From NCBI GenBank assembly GCA_037134895.1, contig JBAXLI010000006.1, positions 38,812 to 102,811 of the forward strand: a DNA stretch of 64,000 bases, given 5' to 3'. The stretch comes from Bacteroidota bacterium. GTDB taxonomy: Bacteria > Bacteroidota > Bacteroidia > Bacteroidales > FEN-979. Shown here in pieces: positions 1,443 to 40,494 of the stretch; within the stretch, counting starts at the first letter, position 1, and each line of letters opens with the position of its first letter. Below the pieces are notes generated by a model. The model was not told where the DNA came from. It saw only the letters and a list, made by a program, of their open reading frames with translations, and did no database searches. Both the position numbers and the translations under genes were made by a program.

Positions 1443-1496
1443 AACCAACAACCAACAACCAACAACCAACAACCAACAACCAACAACCAACAACCA
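1443..1496 (+). repeat. tandem heptanucleotide array (AACCAAC) x7 plus a partial unit
   Basis: Direct reading gives aaccaac repeated perfectly from 1443 to 1491, then aacca. The array ends 4 nt before ATG 1501. Confidence 0.95.
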
Positions 1497-4907: not shown

Positions 4908-4915
4908 TACATTTG
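4908..4915 (+). promoter_or_regulatory. candidate Bacteroidota sigma-A -7 box (TACATTTG = TAnnTTTG) upstream of the branching-enzyme operon
   Basis: Exact match to the TAnnTTTG consensus, 32-53 nt upstream of the candidate start codons at 4947/4968, in an AT-rich 95-bp divergent intergenic region. Confidence 0.4.
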
Positions 4916-4946: not shown

Positions 4947-6995
4947 ATGGAAGCTGGCAAACCACTGATGATGAAACTGATCAAAAACGACGCCTGGCTT
5001 GAGCCCGTCACGGCCGAAATAAACGACCGGTATTTCAGGTACAAAAACACTCTTGACGGCATTAAAGAGGAATGGAAATCCCTGTCTAAATTCGCAGATG
5101 CCTATACTTTCCTGGGGATACATCATGACCGCAAACTCAAAAGATGGTCTTACAGGGAATGGGCGCCGCACGCCCAGGACCTTTACATTTTCGGGGATTT
5201 CAACAACTGGCAGCGGTATTCTCACCGTCTGAACCGCGACAAAAACGGTATCTGGGAAATTTTCCTCCCCGATGATGAATACGGCGATCGCTTCATCCAC
5301 CTTGGCAAGATCAAGGTCATGGTCCATTCCGACCAGGGCTGGCATGAACGGCTGCCGGCTTATATCACCAGGGTCGTACAGAATCCCGAAACCAAAGATT
5401 TTACGGGTCAGATATGGAACCCTCCTGTACCTTTCGACTGGGAAAATGACAAATTCGACCTCCGCCGCCTGCAAGAACTGTTCATATACGAATGTCATCC
5501 CGGGATGTCACAGGAACGTGAAGGGATTGGCAGTTTTTCTGAGTTTGCGGATGACCTTATCCCGTATATCAAGAATGCCGGGTATAATGTAATCCAGCTA
5601 ATGGCCGTCGCTGAACACCCGTATTATGGATCTTTCGGCTACCATGTCACCAATTATTTTGCTGTCTCAAGCCGTTTCGGCACACCGGAAGAGCTGAAGT
5701 ACCTCATTAAAAAAGCCCATGAGCAGGACATCGCTGTTATCATGGACCTGGTTCATTCGCATGCCGCCAAAAACACCAACGAAGGACTGAACATGTTCGA
5801 CGGAAGCGATCACCAGTATTTTCATGCAGGCCCAAGGGGAAACCACCCCCACTGGGACTCCAAGTGCTTCGATTACGGAAAACCGGAAGTTCAGCAATTC
5901 CTTCTTTCAAATGTCAAATACTGGCTGAAAGAATTTCATTTCGACGGATTCCGTTTCGACGGTGTCACCTCGATGATGTATTTCGATCATGGGTACCGCG
6001 AGATCTGGGACCGTGACGGGTATTTTAAAGATGGTGTCGAATGGGATGCAATTACTTACCTCCAGCTTGCAAACACCCTCGCTCACCAGGTCAAAGCCTC
6101 GGCCCTCACTATAGCCGAAGATGTTACCGGAATGCCGGGGCTCTGCCGTCCGATCAAAGATGGCGGTATTGGCTTCGATTTCCGCCTTGGAATGGCACTG
6201 CCCGATTACTGGATCAAGCTTCTGAAGGAAAAGCAGGACGAGGACTGGGATGTTGACGAACTCTGGAGGGTCATGAACGACCGCCTCCCTGATGTGAAAA
6301 CAATAGCATATTGCGAATCACATGACCAGGCACTCGTAGGAGACCAGACTATTGCTTTCAGGCTGATGCAAAGCGAAATCTATTTCAAGATGAGCATGGA
6401 AGAGGAAAGCCATATCATCGACCGCGGGATATCCCTTCATAAAATGATCCGCCTGTTTACACTTGCTTTAGGCGGACAGGCATACCTGAATTTTATGGGC
6501 AATGAATTCGGGCATCCCGACTGGATTGACTTCCCCCGGGAGGGCAATAACTGGAGTCACCAATATGCCCGCCGGCAATGGTCTCTCGTACAAAACCCGA
6601 AATTGAAGTACCGCTTCCTGGGCGAATTCGATAAGGAAATGATCAGGCTTTCAAAAGCATACCACCTCCTCGAAACAAATTTCGGGAACCAGGTATGGAT
6701 GGACCAGTCAAATAAAACTGTCATTTTCGAAAAATCCGGGCTTCTTTTCGTATTCAATTTCCATACCGGCAACTCCATCCCGGATTATGCTTTCAGGATA
6801 CCAGTGCCCGGAGACTACAAGCTGATCCTGAACTCCGATTCCCTTGCTTTCGGAGGCCACGGACGTATTGATGAATCGGCTGTCCACACAAGCATCTTCA
6901 ATCCTGGGGACAACTCGCATACATTAAAAATTTATAACGTTAACCGCACAGTCCAGGTCTTTGAACGCATTCCTTCAACAAACCCTAACCCCTAA
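4947..6995 (+). CDS. glgB: 1,4-alpha-glucan branching enzyme, eukaryote-like GH13_8 type
   Basis: GH13 regions are present: DLVHSHAA, FDGFRFDGVTSMMY (the GH13_8-type region II, unlike DALRVDAV of E. coli GlgB), IAEDVTG and YCESHDQ. An N-terminal CBM48-like segment is present (YREWAPHAQDLYIFGDFNNW). The start may be M8/M9 (4968/4971, MMKLIKNDAWLEP). Confidence 0.9.
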   Translation: MEAGKPLMMKLIKNDAWLEPVTAEINDRYFRYKNTLDGIKEEWKSLSKFADAYTFLGIHHDRKLKRWSYREWAPHAQDLYIFGDFNNWQRYSHRLNRDKNGIWEIFLPDDEYGDRFIHLGKIKVMVHSDQGWHERLPAYITRVVQNPETKDFTGQIWNPPVPFDWENDKFDLRRLQELFIYECHPGMSQEREGIGSFSEFADDLIPYIKNAGYNVIQLMAVAEHPYYGSFGYHVTNYFAVSSRFGTPEELKYLIKKAHEQDIAVIMDLVHSHAAKNTNEGLNMFDGSDHQYFHAGPRGNHPHWDSKCFDYGKPEVQQFLLSNVKYWLKEFHFDGFRFDGVTSMMYFDHGYREIWDRDGYFKDGVEWDAITYLQLANTLAHQVKASALTIAEDVTGMPGLCRPIKDGGIGFDFRLGMALPDYWIKLLKEKQDEDWDVDELWRVMNDRLPDVKTIAYCESHDQALVGDQTIAFRLMQSEIYFKMSMEEESHIIDRGISLHKMIRLFTLALGGQAYLNFMGNEFGHPDWIDFPREGNNWSHQYARRQWSLVQNPKLKYRFLGEFDKEMIRLSKAYHLLETNFGNQVWMDQSNKTVIFEKSGLLFVFNFHTGNSIPDYAFRIPVPGDYKLILNSDSLAFGGHGRIDESAVHTSIFNPGDNSHTLKIYNVNRTVQVFERIPSTNPNP

Positions 6996-7024
6996 TCCCC
7001 AATCCCTAATCCCTAATCCCTAAT
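6983..7024 (+). repeat. tandem heptanucleotide array (CCCTAAT-type) x6
   Basis: The units are ccctaac ccctaat ccccaat ccctaat ccctaat ccctaat. The array overlaps the glgB stop codon (6993-6995) and ends 5 nt before ATG 7030. Confidence 0.95.
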
Positions 7025-7029
7025 AAAAA

Positions 7030-8379
7030 ATGATAAAAAAACCTGCTTTGAGTTTCTGGCAGATCTGGAACATGAGTTTCGGCTTCCTGGGTATTCAATT
7101 CGGATGGGGCCTGCAAATGGCAAATATGAGCTCAATCTATTCATACCTGGGTGCACAACCCGGCCAGATTGCCTTGCTTTGGCTTGCAGCACCAGTAACG
7201 GGTGTGATCATTCAGCCCCTGATCGGTCAGGCAAGTGACCGCACCTGGACAAGACTTGGCCGCCGGCGGCCGTACATCCTGGTCGGGGCCATCCTGGCCT
7301 CCCTTGCCCTGATCTTTATGCCGAACTCGCCTACCTTCTGGGTTGCAGCTGGCCTGCTCTGGGTTCTCGACGGCACTATCAACGCCAGTATGCAGCCTTT
7401 CAGGGCGATGGTAGCTGATAACCTGCCCGAAGAACAGAACTCCCAGGGTTTTGCAATTCAATCACTCTTCATCGGGCTTGGAGGAACAATAGCATCGGCT
7501 CTTCCCTGGATGATGACAAACTGGTTCGGGATAACCCGGGACACTGCCGGACAGGGACATATCCCCACTTCAGTAACCCTCTCGTTTTATATTGGCGCCA
7601 TTGCTTTTATTGGCGCCGTGTTGTGGACAGTATTCTCAACAAAAGAGATCCCGCCCGACGAAAAGGAACTTGCCTCCATACGCTCACAAAAGTTCGACTG
7701 GACACTGGGACTGGGAGAGATCGTAAGGCTTATCGGACATCTTCCAAGACGCATGTGGGAACTCGGATTGGTTCAGTTTTTCACCTGGATTGGAATGTTC
7801 TGCCTATGGGTGTACTTCTCACCGGCCATTGCCGCGAATGTATTCCATGCCACCGAAGGCACTGTTGACATGGAAGCTTCAGGGGCCTGGGCGGGATTCT
7901 GCTTTGCCGCCTATAATGCTGTTTGCTTCGCTTTCTCGTTTGTCCTGATCAGAGCCACAAAATATACAGGACCCAAAATGATGCATGCTGTATGCCTTGC
8001 AATTGGCGCGGTCGGACTTCTCATCATCCCTGTTTTGAACAGTAAATACGGACTTCTTATTTCGATGACATGCATCGGGATCGCATGGTCAAGCATCCTC
8101 TCAATGCCTTATGCCATGCTGACACCAGCACTGCCCCCCGACAAACTCGGAGTGATGATGGGGATCTTCAACCTGTTTATCGTAATACCACAGGTTATTG
8201 CCTCCAGCCTGCTTGGAAAGGTGATTGAGATCTTCTTCTCAGGCAAACCGATGAGCGCTATGTTCATAGGAGGTATCTGCTTCGCTATCGCTTCAGTTAC
8301 AACAATTGCATTCGTTTCCTATAAAAAAAATATTCCTCTTTTAACTGCCGATAAGAGCTCAAAAAACCGTCTGCATTGA
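7030..8379 (+). CDS. MFS sugar:cation symporter, SLC45/sucrose-transporter-like (probable maltose/maltodextrin importer)
   Basis: About 12 TM helices. GQASDRTWTRLGRRRPYILVG is the R-x-G-R-R motif between TM2 and TM3 typical of the GPH/SLC45-like family. The gene sits in an alpha-glucan operon. Confidence 0.85.
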   Translation: MIKKPALSFWQIWNMSFGFLGIQFGWGLQMANMSSIYSYLGAQPGQIALLWLAAPVTGVIIQPLIGQASDRTWTRLGRRRPYILVGAILASLALIFMPNSPTFWVAAGLLWVLDGTINASMQPFRAMVADNLPEEQNSQGFAIQSLFIGLGGTIASALPWMMTNWFGITRDTAGQGHIPTSVTLSFYIGAIAFIGAVLWTVFSTKEIPPDEKELASIRSQKFDWTLGLGEIVRLIGHLPRRMWELGLVQFFTWIGMFCLWVYFSPAIAANVFHATEGTVDMEASGAWAGFCFAAYNAVCFAFSFVLIRATKYTGPKMMHAVCLAIGAVGLLIIPVLNSKYGLLISMTCIGIAWSSILSMPYAMLTPALPPDKLGVMMGIFNLFIVIPQVIASSLLGKVIEIFFSGKPMSAMFIGGICFAIASVTTIAFVSYKKNIPLLTADKSSKNRLH

Positions 8380-40412: not shown

Positions 40413-40416
40413 GCTT

Positions 40417-40494
40417 AACCCCTAACTCCAAATCCCTAATCCCTAACCCCTAACCCCTAATCCCCAACCCCCAACCCCCAAACCCTAATCCCCA
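40417..40494 (+). repeat. degenerate heptanucleotide array (CCCTAAT/CCCTAAC/CCCCAAC type), about 11 units
   Basis: aacccctaactccaaatccctaatccctaacccctaacccctaatccccaacccccaacccccaaaccctaatcccc. It ends 4 nt before ATG 40499 of the RND pump and uses the same unit as the array at 6983-7024. Confidence 0.95.

What the first reader, a model, noticed from the sequence alone, without database searches (positions are those of the whole stretch)
6968..7032. (CCCTAAT)6 array bridges the glgB stop and the MFS transporter start: a 64-nt G-free junction
Six heptamers (ccctaac ccctaat ccccaat ccctaat x3) span 6983-7024. The first units encode the last residues of the branching enzyme (..STNPNP*) and contain its stop codon. 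The last unit ends 5 nt before ATG 7030. The sense strand has no G from 6968 to 7031. The complement is (ATTAGGG)n, with six GGG runs separated by 4-nt loops. The unit resembles telomeric repeats (vertebrate TTAGGG plus one A), yet it lies inside a bacterial operon. This is the second copy of the family seen at 40417-40494, again directly in front of a membrane-transporter gene.
Basis: seen in the sequence. Interest (0 to 1): 0.6.

Follow-up and report, generated by a model that had tools for sequence, protein, structure and literature searches.

The report
Heptamer repeat filling a glgB–transporter gap
The six 7-base repeats between a glycogen-branching-type enzyme gene and a sugar transporter gene are real, but they are one ordinary copy of about 950 such repeat runs in this uncultured freshwater Bacteroidales genome, a repeat class already described in Xanthomonas and Nostoc.

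Summary
Six CCCTAAT-type units (6983-7024) contain the TAA stop of the GH13 branching-enzyme-like gene. They end 5 nt before the MFS start, and the sense strand has no G from 6968 to 7031.

The array is not special. The genome holds 946 period-7 arrays (1% of its DNA, 153 unit types), and 126 of them belong to this C3-5/A,T family. This scan has already reported the same repeat class several times on other DNA of this genome.

Eleven congeneric lineages keep the same gene pair with a -8 to +13 nt non-repeat spacer and no array. The array is therefore a species-specific gain of about 27 nt, roughly four units. A second assembly that differs by 4 SNPs has the same six units.

Genome-wide, arrays of this family next to a start codon carry the C-rich strand as sense (39:4). 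Arrays next to a stop codon carry the G-rich strand as sense (51:28). Rehm et al. 2015 described the same polarity.

The array is best read as a slippage-made microsatellite, kept in the only orientation that Shine-Dalgarno-less Bacteroidota leaders tolerate. The link to transporter genes and the telomere idea are not supported. A regulatory role is untested.

The parts
6983..7024 (+). Tandem heptamer array of six units: ccctaac ccctaat ccccaat ccctaat ccctaat ccctaat. The C-rich strand is the sense strand of both flanking genes.
   Evidence: TRF (period 7, 6.0 copies, score 70). Sequence read. 0 of 100 shuffles give any match.
6968..7031 (+). 64-nt G-free tract on the sense strand. It covers the glgB-like tail codons, the array, the A5 spacer and the AT of the ATG.
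   Evidence: Sequence read. The RNA fold leaves the array and the start region fully unpaired.
4947..6995 (+). GH13 branching-enzyme-like gene (CBM48 + alpha-amylase + alpha-amylase_C, 682 aa). The last three codons and the TAA stop (6993-6995) are array sequence.
   Evidence: The tail after VFER is non-conserved in congeners, 8-14 aa.
7025..7029 (+). AAAAA spacer between the last unit and the start codon. It keeps A at -1 to -5, including the A-3 determinant known for Bacteroidota.
   Evidence: Sequence read. Determinants from Baez et al. 2019, PMC6847099.
7030..8379 (+). MFS (GPH / sucrose-maltose type) transporter gene, 449 aa. Its start position is conserved in congeners.
   Evidence: IMG names cluster members maltose/maltooligosaccharide transporter.
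4908..4915 (+). TACATTTG, a Bacteroidetes-type -7 box (TAnnTTTG) 31 nt before the glgB-like ATG. It is the only such box on the + strand between 4700 and 9398, so the array is most likely transcribed inside a glgB-like / MFS / propeller / malQ operon mRNA.
   Evidence: No sigma-70-like promoter or terminator at the junction.
40416..40494 (+). Second array of the same family (11 units), C-rich strand sense, 6 nt before the ATG of an RND pump gene.

Best explanation
The array is one member of a genome-wide population of heptanucleotide microsatellites (long simple sequence repeats, STRR-like). These arise and change length by replication slippage. They fill intergenic DNA until they meet a constraint.

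At this site the array expanded, in this species only, inside a very short ancestral glgB-like/MFS spacer (-8 to +13 nt).
- On the 3' side it stopped 5 nt before the transporter's start codon.
- On the 5' side it overran the unconstrained C-terminal tail of the enzyme. The TAA inside the unit supplies the new stop.

It survives because the C-rich strand is the sense strand. The intercistronic mRNA then has no G, no secondary structure, no RNA quadruplex and no extra AUG. It also keeps A at -1 to -5, and Shine-Dalgarno-independent Bacteroidota ribosomes can accept such a leader. The opposite orientation is removed by selection next to start codons.

Shown:
- the anatomy of the array;
- its restriction to this species;
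- the genome-wide census;
- the strand polarity;
- G-poor natural leaders.

Inferred:
- slippage as the generating process;
- selection on the leader as the cause of the orientation;
- near-neutrality of the array for operon expression.
For: Census:
- There are 1120 period-7 TRF rows and 946 arrays of at least 21 nt. They cover 1.0% of a 4.7-Mb genome and comprise 153 unit types.
- 620 arrays are fully intergenic, although intergenic DNA is only about 9% of the genome.
- 126 arrays belong to this C3/G3 family, with a median of 6 units.

Species-specific gain:
- Ten congeners place the MFS ATG 57-62 nt after the conserved QVFE anchor. The window places it at 86, which is about 27 nt or four units further. 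No congener has a repeat there.
- The closest metagenome ortholog (88% identity) has none either.
- (CCCTAAT)3 occurs 65 times in this genome and 0-2 times in each of 10 congeners.

Polarity:
- Within 50 nt before a start, the sense strand is C-rich in 39 arrays and G-rich in 4 (p = 3e-8).
- At stops it is G-rich in 51 and C-rich in 28.
- The bias holds when only units with symmetric stop-codon content are counted (35:1 and 74:12).
- In 24 of the 39, the array ends 0-8 nt before a plausible ATG, as it does here.

Leader filter:
- Array-free leaders have 12.6% G and 38% A in the last 20 nt, against 22.8% G genome-wide.
- The leader RNA is predicted to be unpaired.
- In F. johnsoniae, initiation depends on low structure and upstream adenines, not on a Shine-Dalgarno sequence (PMC6847099).

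Tolerance on the enzyme side:
- The tail after VFER differs in sequence and length in every congener.
- The Pfam C-terminal domain ends at residue 672.

Same class as published: Rehm et al. 2015 report the same intergenic bias, divergent-gap depletion and strand/position rule. Convergent enrichment and divergent depletion are reproduced here.
Against: - No direct evidence of slippage at this locus.
- The strong polarity shows that selection, or a strand-specific process, acts on these arrays. A positive function for start-abutting arrays is therefore not excluded.
- The array puts U and C at -13/-12 and U at -6, where adenines stimulate initiation in F. johnsoniae. It may not be neutral for transporter expression.
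- The G-rich bias on the stop side exists in all unit families but not in array-free 3' flanks. The leader-filter idea does not explain this.
- The gene map used for the statistics is a crude longest-ORF map.
Confidence: 0.65

Rival explanations
1. Tunable intercistronic leader. The array is a selected, mutable, structure-free spacer. Its length sets the distance between the enzyme's stop and the transporter's start, and so the degree of translational coupling or re-initiation. Unit gain and loss would then tune transporter output relative to the enzyme.
For: - C-strand arrays abut start codons far more often than the opposite orientation (39:4).
- Ancestral coupling is tight. The genes overlap by 8 nt (ATGCATAA) in three congeners and are 8-13 nt apart in the others. 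The array therefore changes the coupling distance to 34 nt.
- An earlier follow-up reached a similar reading for the RND array in this window (e1-3616540).
Against: - With two or more units, the 20 nt before the ATG are the same whatever the copy number, so the initiation region itself does not change with length.
- The array is absent from all 11 related lineages, which therefore manage without it.
- It has the same six units in two assemblies.
- The positions that stimulate initiation in F. johnsoniae (-6, -12, -13) are pyrimidines here.
- Downstream genes of such arrays are functionally unselected (Rehm et al. found the same).
Confidence: 0.17
2. DNA-structure element. The template strand (ATTAGGG-type, six G-runs) folds into a G-quadruplex, and/or the C-rich non-template strand folds into an i-motif, when the duplex opens. 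This would pause RNA polymerase or the replisome at the gene boundary and set the enzyme:transporter transcript ratio.
For: - There are six G3-4 runs with 3-4 nt loops. G4-aware folding gives -10.5 against -0.6 kcal/mol.
- 214 of the genome's 310 canonical G4 motifs lie in heptamer arrays.
- Rehm et al. showed by CD that GGGAATC and GGGGA(C/T)T oligonucleotides form G4s, and that the C-strands form i-motifs at pH 6.5. One unit here, GGGGATT, is identical to the Nostoc unit.
Against: - The same stop-side strand polarity is shown by heptamer families that cannot form G4s (AGGATGC 52:10, GGTTGTT 10:3; other units 125:26). G4 capacity is therefore not what sets the arrangement.
- There is no preference for four units here. 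The mode is 5-6, unlike in Rehm et al.
- Rehm et al. themselves could not identify a regulatory role.
- The main unit, GGGATTA, has not been tested biophysically.
Confidence: 0.1
3. Phase-variation (contingency) switch. Gain or loss of a 7-nt unit shifts a reading frame or a promoter spacing and turns the transporter or the enzyme on or off.
For: The unit length is not a multiple of three, and the array touches a coding region.
Against: - The enzyme's stop lies in unit 2, and every frame meets a TAA within three units. Copy-number changes therefore alter at most the last few residues of an unconserved tail.
- The transporter ORF starts after the array.
- No promoter elements flank the array.
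Confidence: 0.02
4. Telomere-like or templated addition. The repeats would be added by a reverse-transcriptase/telomerase-like activity, or would mark a former replicon end.
For: Only the resemblance of ATTAGGG to TTAGGG and TTTAGGG.
Against: - The array is internal to a 110-kb contig, between two genes that are adjacent in all congeners.
- The genome has 153 different unit types, linked by point mutations within arrays, which does not fit one template.
- Arrays occur on both strands.
Confidence: 0.01

Closest known systems
G-quadruplex-capable heptamer SSRs GGGAATC (Xanthomonas) and GGGGA(C/T)T (Nostoc sp. PCC 7120), Rehm et al. 2015, PMC4692102
   Same: - 7-nt unit with a G3-4 run and an A/T-rich loop.
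- Hundreds of dispersed arrays with a non-coding bias.
- Depletion between divergent genes.
- The G-strand is antisense just upstream of ORFs and sense just after, or over, stop codons.
- Neighbouring genes have no common function.
- Extensive between-species variation.
- One unit here (GGGGATT) is identical to the Nostoc unit.
   Different: - The host is an uncultured freshwater Bacteroidales.
- The main unit is GGGATTA, which does not fit GGGNATC.
- There is no preference for four units (mode 5-6).
- This family is only about 13% of the heptamer arrays in a genome with 153 unit types. The stop-side polarity extends to units that cannot form G4s.
Cyanobacterial STRR sequences (short tandemly repeated repetitive heptamers such as CCCCAAT; Mazel et al. 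1990, cited from my own knowledge) and the long SSRs of Mrazek et al. 2007 (as summarised in PMC4679880)
   Same: - Tandem heptamers in several unit families, intergenic and lineage-specific.
- Polymerase slippage is the proposed origin.
- The unit ccccaat at 6997-7003 equals STRR1.
   Different: A different phylum. The density (1% of the genome) and the unit diversity are high, and ten congeners appear nearly free of such arrays in the sampled 92 kb.
TAACTGA direct repeats of marine Beggiatoaceae, some Cyanobacteria and five Bacteroidetes (MacGregor 2015, PMC4679880)
   Same: Heptamer arrays lie within a few nucleotides upstream of start codons, in 'forward' orientation. They also occur in Bacteroidetes and are proposed to act at the translational level.
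   Different: A single dominant unit with mostly 2-6 copies. A dedicated regulator was hypothesised there. Here there are many units and no candidate binding protein.
Simple-sequence contingency loci (for example tetranucleotide tracts in Haemophilus and Neisseria)
   Same: Slippage-prone tandem repeats at gene boundaries.
   Different: Here no reading frame or promoter spacing depends on unit number, so it is not an on/off switch.

Membership tests
Heptanucleotide long SSR / STRR-type repeats | Head-to-tail tandem copies of a 7-nt unit, longer than chance allows | tested here: met
   TRF gives period 7, 6.0 copies, 91% matches. 0 of 100 shuffles give a match.
Heptanucleotide long SSR / STRR-type repeats | Many dispersed arrays in the same genome, with an intergenic bias | tested here: met
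   946 arrays, of which 620 are fully intergenic although intergenic DNA is about 9% of the genome.
Heptanucleotide long SSR / STRR-type repeats | Copy number or presence varies between close relatives | tested here: inconclusive
   Absent at this junction in 11 congeneric lineages. The only same-species assembly has the identical six units.
G4-forming GGGNATC-type repeats (Rehm et al. 2015) | Unit fits GGGNATC / GGGGA(C/T)T | tested here: inconclusive
   One unit is GGGGATT, which fits. Four units are GGGATTA and one is GGGGTTA, and these do not fit the consensus although they have the same G-run plus A/T-loop design.
G4-forming GGGNATC-type repeats (Rehm et al. 2015) | At least four consecutive G-tracts with short loops (G4 capacity) | tested here: met
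   Six G3-4 tracts with loops of 3-4 nt. The G4-aware MFE is -10.5 kcal/mol. Physical folding was not tested.
G4-forming GGGNATC-type repeats (Rehm et al. 2015) | G-strand antisense within 50 nt upstream of ORFs, and sense at or after stop codons | tested here: met
   39:4 before starts and 51:28 at stops. This array follows the start-side rule. It is one of only 4 of 28 C-sense arrays that also reach the upstream stop.
G4-forming GGGNATC-type repeats (Rehm et al. 2015) | Preference for four units | tested here: not met
   Copy-number counts are 29 arrays with 5 units, 21 with 6, 18 with 8 and 13 with 4.
Phase-variable contingency locus | Unit gain or loss shifts a reading frame or the promoter spacing of the adjacent gene | tested here: not met
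   The stop is in unit 2, the transporter ORF begins after the array, and no promoter boxes flank it.
Telomeric repeat | Located at the end of a linear replicon and maintained by telomerase | tested here: not met
   The array is internal to a 110,823-bp contig, between genes that are adjacent in all congeners. Telomerase was not searched for.
Known structured RNA family | Match to an Rfam covariance model | tested here: not met
   No match at E <= 1 in 6400-7600 on either strand.

The most novel reading that the evidence does not exclude
The position-dependent strand rule is not a quadruplex effect. It would be a general property of heptamer arrays in this Bacteroidales genome. The G-richer strand always has its 5' end at the gene boundary, both for arrays after stops (74:12 for G3 units, 125:26 for units that cannot form G4s) and for arrays before starts (35:1 for C3 units). 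This would point to one of two things. Either a gene-end-directed, strand-specific process generates the repeats (for example transcription-coupled slippage). Or the repeats are used systematically as structure-free, G-less translation leaders and G-rich 3' ends in a phylum that lacks Shine-Dalgarno initiation. In that case the glgB-like/MFS array would be a working leader and not a passenger. The burst in this one species, with intact mutS and mutL, would then need a specific cause.
Probability: 0.15. Interest if true: 0.55.

Novelty: new member of a known kind. Interest (0 to 1): 0.25.

Why it matters
By itself this array matters little. It is a recent, species-specific repeat expansion that rewrote three codons of a dispensable enzyme tail and lengthened an intercistronic spacer.

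The genome-level picture is more useful. A freshwater Bacteroidales species devotes 1% of its DNA to about 950 heptamer arrays. These obey the same strand/position rule as the repeats of Xanthomonas and Nostoc, and the rule also holds for units that cannot form quadruplexes.

That extends a poorly understood repeat class to a third phylum. It also offers a natural test of which sequences Shine-Dalgarno-independent ribosomes tolerate next to a start codon.

In practice, such arrays break assemblies: 19% of contig ends here lie in or within 30 nt of one. They also distort gene calls at starts and stops.

Tried and rejected
- **Transporter association.** A hydropathy count shows 8 of 39 downstream genes with at least 4 TM segments, against a 10.6% background (p = 0.06). 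Rejected as a rule.
- **Overall strand bias in co-directional gaps.** None was found (170 against 165). The bias appears only when arrays are split by proximity to a start or a stop.
- **Artefact check on polarity.** Because longest-ORF calls depend on stop content, I repeated the count using only units with the same stop-codon status on both strands. The bias persists.
- **Growth polarity.** I tested whether newer, perfect units sit at the gene-proximal end, as in this array. There is no general trend (0.835 against 0.852, p = 0.17; stops 0.854 against 0.857, p = 0.50).
- **Loss of mismatch repair as the cause of the burst.** Rejected. MutS (1002 bits, cut-off 480) and MutL (513 bits, cut-off 180) are present and full-length.
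- **Strain variants.**
  - An exact left-flank search of the metagenome contigs found nothing.
  - A protein-guided scan found no same-species contig; the best hit is 88% identical.
  - The exact-protein look-up gave one other assembly, with identical units. The exact MFS look-up gave nothing.
- **Structured RNA or mobile element.** There is no Rfam match and no plasmid match (with the low-complexity filter on).
- **Promoter or terminator at the junction.** None was found.


Full report
**1. The observation**

The sequence at 6968-7032 is as described.
- TRF reports a period-7 array at 6983-7024 with 6.0 copies, 91% matches and consensus CCCTAAT.
- ORF 4947-6995 ends ..VFERIPSTNPNP*. Its TAA (6993-6995) lies in the second unit.
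- The array ends at 7024, AAAAA follows, and the next ORF starts at ATG 7030.
- The last G before the tract is at 6967 and the next is the G of that ATG. The 64-nt G-free run is therefore real.
- (CCCTAAT)3 with up to three mismatches matches nine times in the window, all in this array and in the one at 40416-40494. None of 100 shuffles gave a match.

Two small corrections apply.
- The C/G runs are 3, 4, 4, 3, 3, 3 long, with loops of 3-4 nt.
- 'glgB' has the CBM48 / alpha-amylase / alpha-amylase_C architecture, but it scores below NCBIfam's GlgB equivalog cut-offs.

The downstream gene is a GPH/sucrose-maltose-type MFS transporter, and IMG names cluster members maltose/maltooligosaccharide transporter. 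A propeller protein overlapping it by 4 nt and a malQ gene follow. The only Bacteroidetes-type -7 box (TAnnTTTG) on this strand between 4700 and 9398 lies 31 nt before the first gene. No promoter- or terminator-like site lies at the junction. The array is therefore most likely transcribed inside an alpha-glucan operon mRNA, but this is an inference.

**2. The organism and the census**

The window lies in a 4.7-Mb, 191-contig assembly (97% complete) with 45.6% G+C. Its nearest public relatives are freshwater Bacteroidales/Bacteroidota MAGs, with Prolixibacteraceae and Draconibacterium further out.

TRF on the whole genome gives 3228 rows, of which 1120 have period 7. They fall into 153 unit types after rotation and complementation. 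The commonest are AGGATGC (226 rows), AATTACG (67), AAATCGT (65), AATCCCT (55), ATCCCGC (53) and AATCCCC (50).

There are 946 arrays of at least 21 nt, and they cover 1.0% of the genome. I built a crude longest-ORF gene map (3526 ORFs, 91% coverage). Against it, 620 arrays are fully intergenic, 84 straddle a gene end and 242 lie inside ORFs, mostly near 5' ends.
- Arrays are enriched between convergent genes: 138 of 551, against 16% of gaps.
- They are depleted between divergent genes: 64, although 28% of intergenic bases lie there.
- 74 of 382 contig ends lie in or within 30 nt of an array.
- In co-directional gaps, 125 of 349 arrays touch the upstream stop, and 22 bridge stop to start as this one does.
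- 126 arrays belong to the one-strand-G-free C3-5/A,T family of this finding, with a median of six units.

The array under review is thus an average member of a large population. This scan had already reported the same repeat class on other pieces of this genome and for the second array of this window.

**3. History of this junction**

The enzyme-transporter gene pair is conserved in ten other species of the genus (84-86% enzyme identity).
- In all of them the conserved transporter start (M-x-x-K-P-x-L-x-F-W-Q-I-W) lies 57-62 nt after the QVFE anchor of the enzyme.
- The spacer is non-repetitive and runs from -8 nt (an ATGCATAA overlap in three species) to +13 nt.
- In the window the start lies at 86, a net gain of about 27 nt or roughly four units.
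- The closest metagenome ortholog (88% transporter identity) also has no array.

After VFER the enzyme tail differs in every species (8-14 residues), and the Pfam C-terminal domain ends at residue 672. Overwriting the tail with NPNP* should therefore cost little.

(CCCTAAT)3 occurs 65 times in this genome and 0-2 times in each of ten congeners. In 92 kb of congener DNA around this locus there is one period-7 array, against 20 per 100 kb genome-wide here and 7.5 per 100 kb in other genera of the family. The expansion therefore looks species-specific, although the congener sample is small.

An independent assembly (GCA_005795785.1 contig SESG01008308) differs from the window by four SNPs in 4231 nt. 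It has exactly the same six units. The array is real, and it is not wildly unstable on that time scale.

**4. Strand and position rule**

A pooled count over co-directional gaps shows no bias (170 against 165). Splitting the arrays by which gene end they adjoin reveals a strong rule.
- For the C3/G3 family, arrays within 50 nt before a start have the C-rich strand as sense in 39 cases and the G-rich strand in 4 (p = 3e-8).
- Arrays at or within 50 nt after a stop have the G-rich strand as sense in 51 cases and the C-rich strand in 28.
- 49 of the 51 G-sense arrays lie within 5 nt of the stop or over it. Only 4 of the 28 C-sense arrays do so, and this array is one of them.
- 24 of the 39 start-side arrays end 0-8 nt before a plausible ATG. 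Most of the others end directly at a TAnnTTTG box.

Longest-ORF calls depend on stop content, so I recounted using only units whose two strands have the same stop-codon status. The bias holds at 35:1 before starts and 74:12 at stops. For units without G3 runs it is 46:32 and 125:26. Individual families that cannot form G4s show it too, for example AGGATGC at 52:10 after stops.

Rehm et al. (2015) reported the same arrangement for GGGAATC in Xanthomonas and GGGGA(C/T)T in Nostoc. They also reported the intergenic bias, the depletion in divergent gaps and the lack of a common gene function. Their preference for four units is not seen here, where the mode is 5-6.

**5. How it most likely works**

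Array-free leaders in this genome are G-poor and A-rich: 12.6% G and 38% A in the last 20 nt, against 22.8% G overall. Array-free 3' flanks show G equal to C.

Bacteroidia ribosomes do not use Shine-Dalgarno pairing. In F. johnsoniae, initiation is tuned by low mRNA structure and by adenines at -3, -6, -12 and -13, and extra AUGs are avoided (PMC6847099).

The C-sense array gives a leader with no G, no predicted pairing, no AUG and A at -1 to -5. The opposite orientation would place six G-runs, able to form an RNA quadruplex, in front of the start.

I therefore read the start-side rule as a filter, not as proof of function. Slippage-generated arrays persist next to starts only in the G-less orientation. 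Three points argue that the array is not an optimised or tunable leader.
- Positions -6, -12 and -13 are U, C and U here, which are not the favoured adenines.
- With two or more units, the 20 nt before the ATG do not change with copy number.
- Eleven relatives do without the array.

The template strand meets the G4 motif, and 214 of the genome's 310 G4 motifs lie in heptamer arrays. However, the polarity of units that cannot form G4s argues that quadruplex capacity is not the organising principle.

Other points:
- Mismatch-repair loss does not explain the abundance, because MutS and MutL are intact. It is established for E. coli MutS (my own knowledge) that loops larger than about 4 nt are poorly recognised, so heptamer slippage intermediates would escape repair anyway.
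- The stop-side G-rich rule remains unexplained (note).
- There is no general tendency for gene-proximal units to be more perfect.

**6. Rejected readings**

- A frameshift switch is excluded by the anatomy. The stop is in unit 2 and the transporter ORF begins after the array.
- The telomere resemblance has no support. The array is internal to a 110-kb contig, 153 unit types exist, and arrays occur on both strands.
- The link to transporter genes is not significant (8 of 39 against 10.6%, p = 0.06).
- No Rfam family or plasmid sequence matches.

**7. Limits**

Read-level length variation, RNA coverage and whole-genome censuses of relatives are therefore missing.
- The gene map is crude, and start positions in particular are longest-ORF starts.
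- Kin genomes are not independent samples.

**8. Verdict**

The array is a new member of a known kind of repeat, in a phylum where that kind has been little described. Interest is low for this locus and moderate for the genome-wide strand rule.

Noticed in passing
G000 contig C166 (2,830 bp), minus strand, ORF of 870 aa: The full-length mutS gene (NCBIfam PRK05399, 1002 bits) sits on a tiny contig. Its ORF runs at the 3' end into an (AGGATGC)n array, read as ..GSGMQDAGSGMRDAGS, up to the contig end. The true stop of the mismatch-repair gene is therefore unassembled or inside a heptamer array.
   Followed up: partly
G000-wide, for example C94:13186-13234, C123:7406-7438, C119:6951-7026, C49:3307-3370: About 11 of 39 start-side C-rich arrays end directly at a Bacteroidetes -7 promoter box (TAnnTTTG, for example ..ccctaatTTCGTACCTTTGCACC ATG). 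The ATG follows only 4-42 nt later. The arrays occupy the upstream (-33) part of the promoter, and the mRNAs would have very short leaders.
   Followed up: no
window 1443-1496: (AACCAAC)7.7 ends 4 nt before ATG 1501. This is the same start-abutting, G-free arrangement. Genome-wide this unit is sense before starts 12:4 and its complement is sense after stops 10:3.
   Followed up: partly
L002, L003, L007 (junction): In three congeners the enzyme's stop overlaps the transporter's start by 8 nt (ATGCATAA or ATGCGTGA context). This indicates ancestral translational coupling, which the array has broken in this species by giving a 34-nt spacer.
   Followed up: partly
G000-wide: Arrays touching stop codons have G>C on the sense strand in all unit families (74:12 and 125:26), yet array-free 3' flanks have G equal to C. 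No explanation was found.
   Followed up: partly
window 7569-7638 compared with L101: All four differences between the window and the second assembly (SESG01008308) cluster within 70 nt of the MFS gene. The other 4.1 kb are identical. This suggests a small recombination patch or co-assembled strain variants.
   Followed up: no
L094:1300-1540 (G016, another genus of the family): Next to the orthologous MFS gene there is a different composite of tandem repeats: CGTCTCA/CGTCCCA heptamers plus a CATCATTGC-type array. Other genera carry their own unit families at comparable positions.
   Followed up: no
G000 contig ends: 74 of 382 contig ends lie in or within 30 nt of a period-7 array. These repeats are a main cause of assembly breaks in this MAG.
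   Followed up: yes
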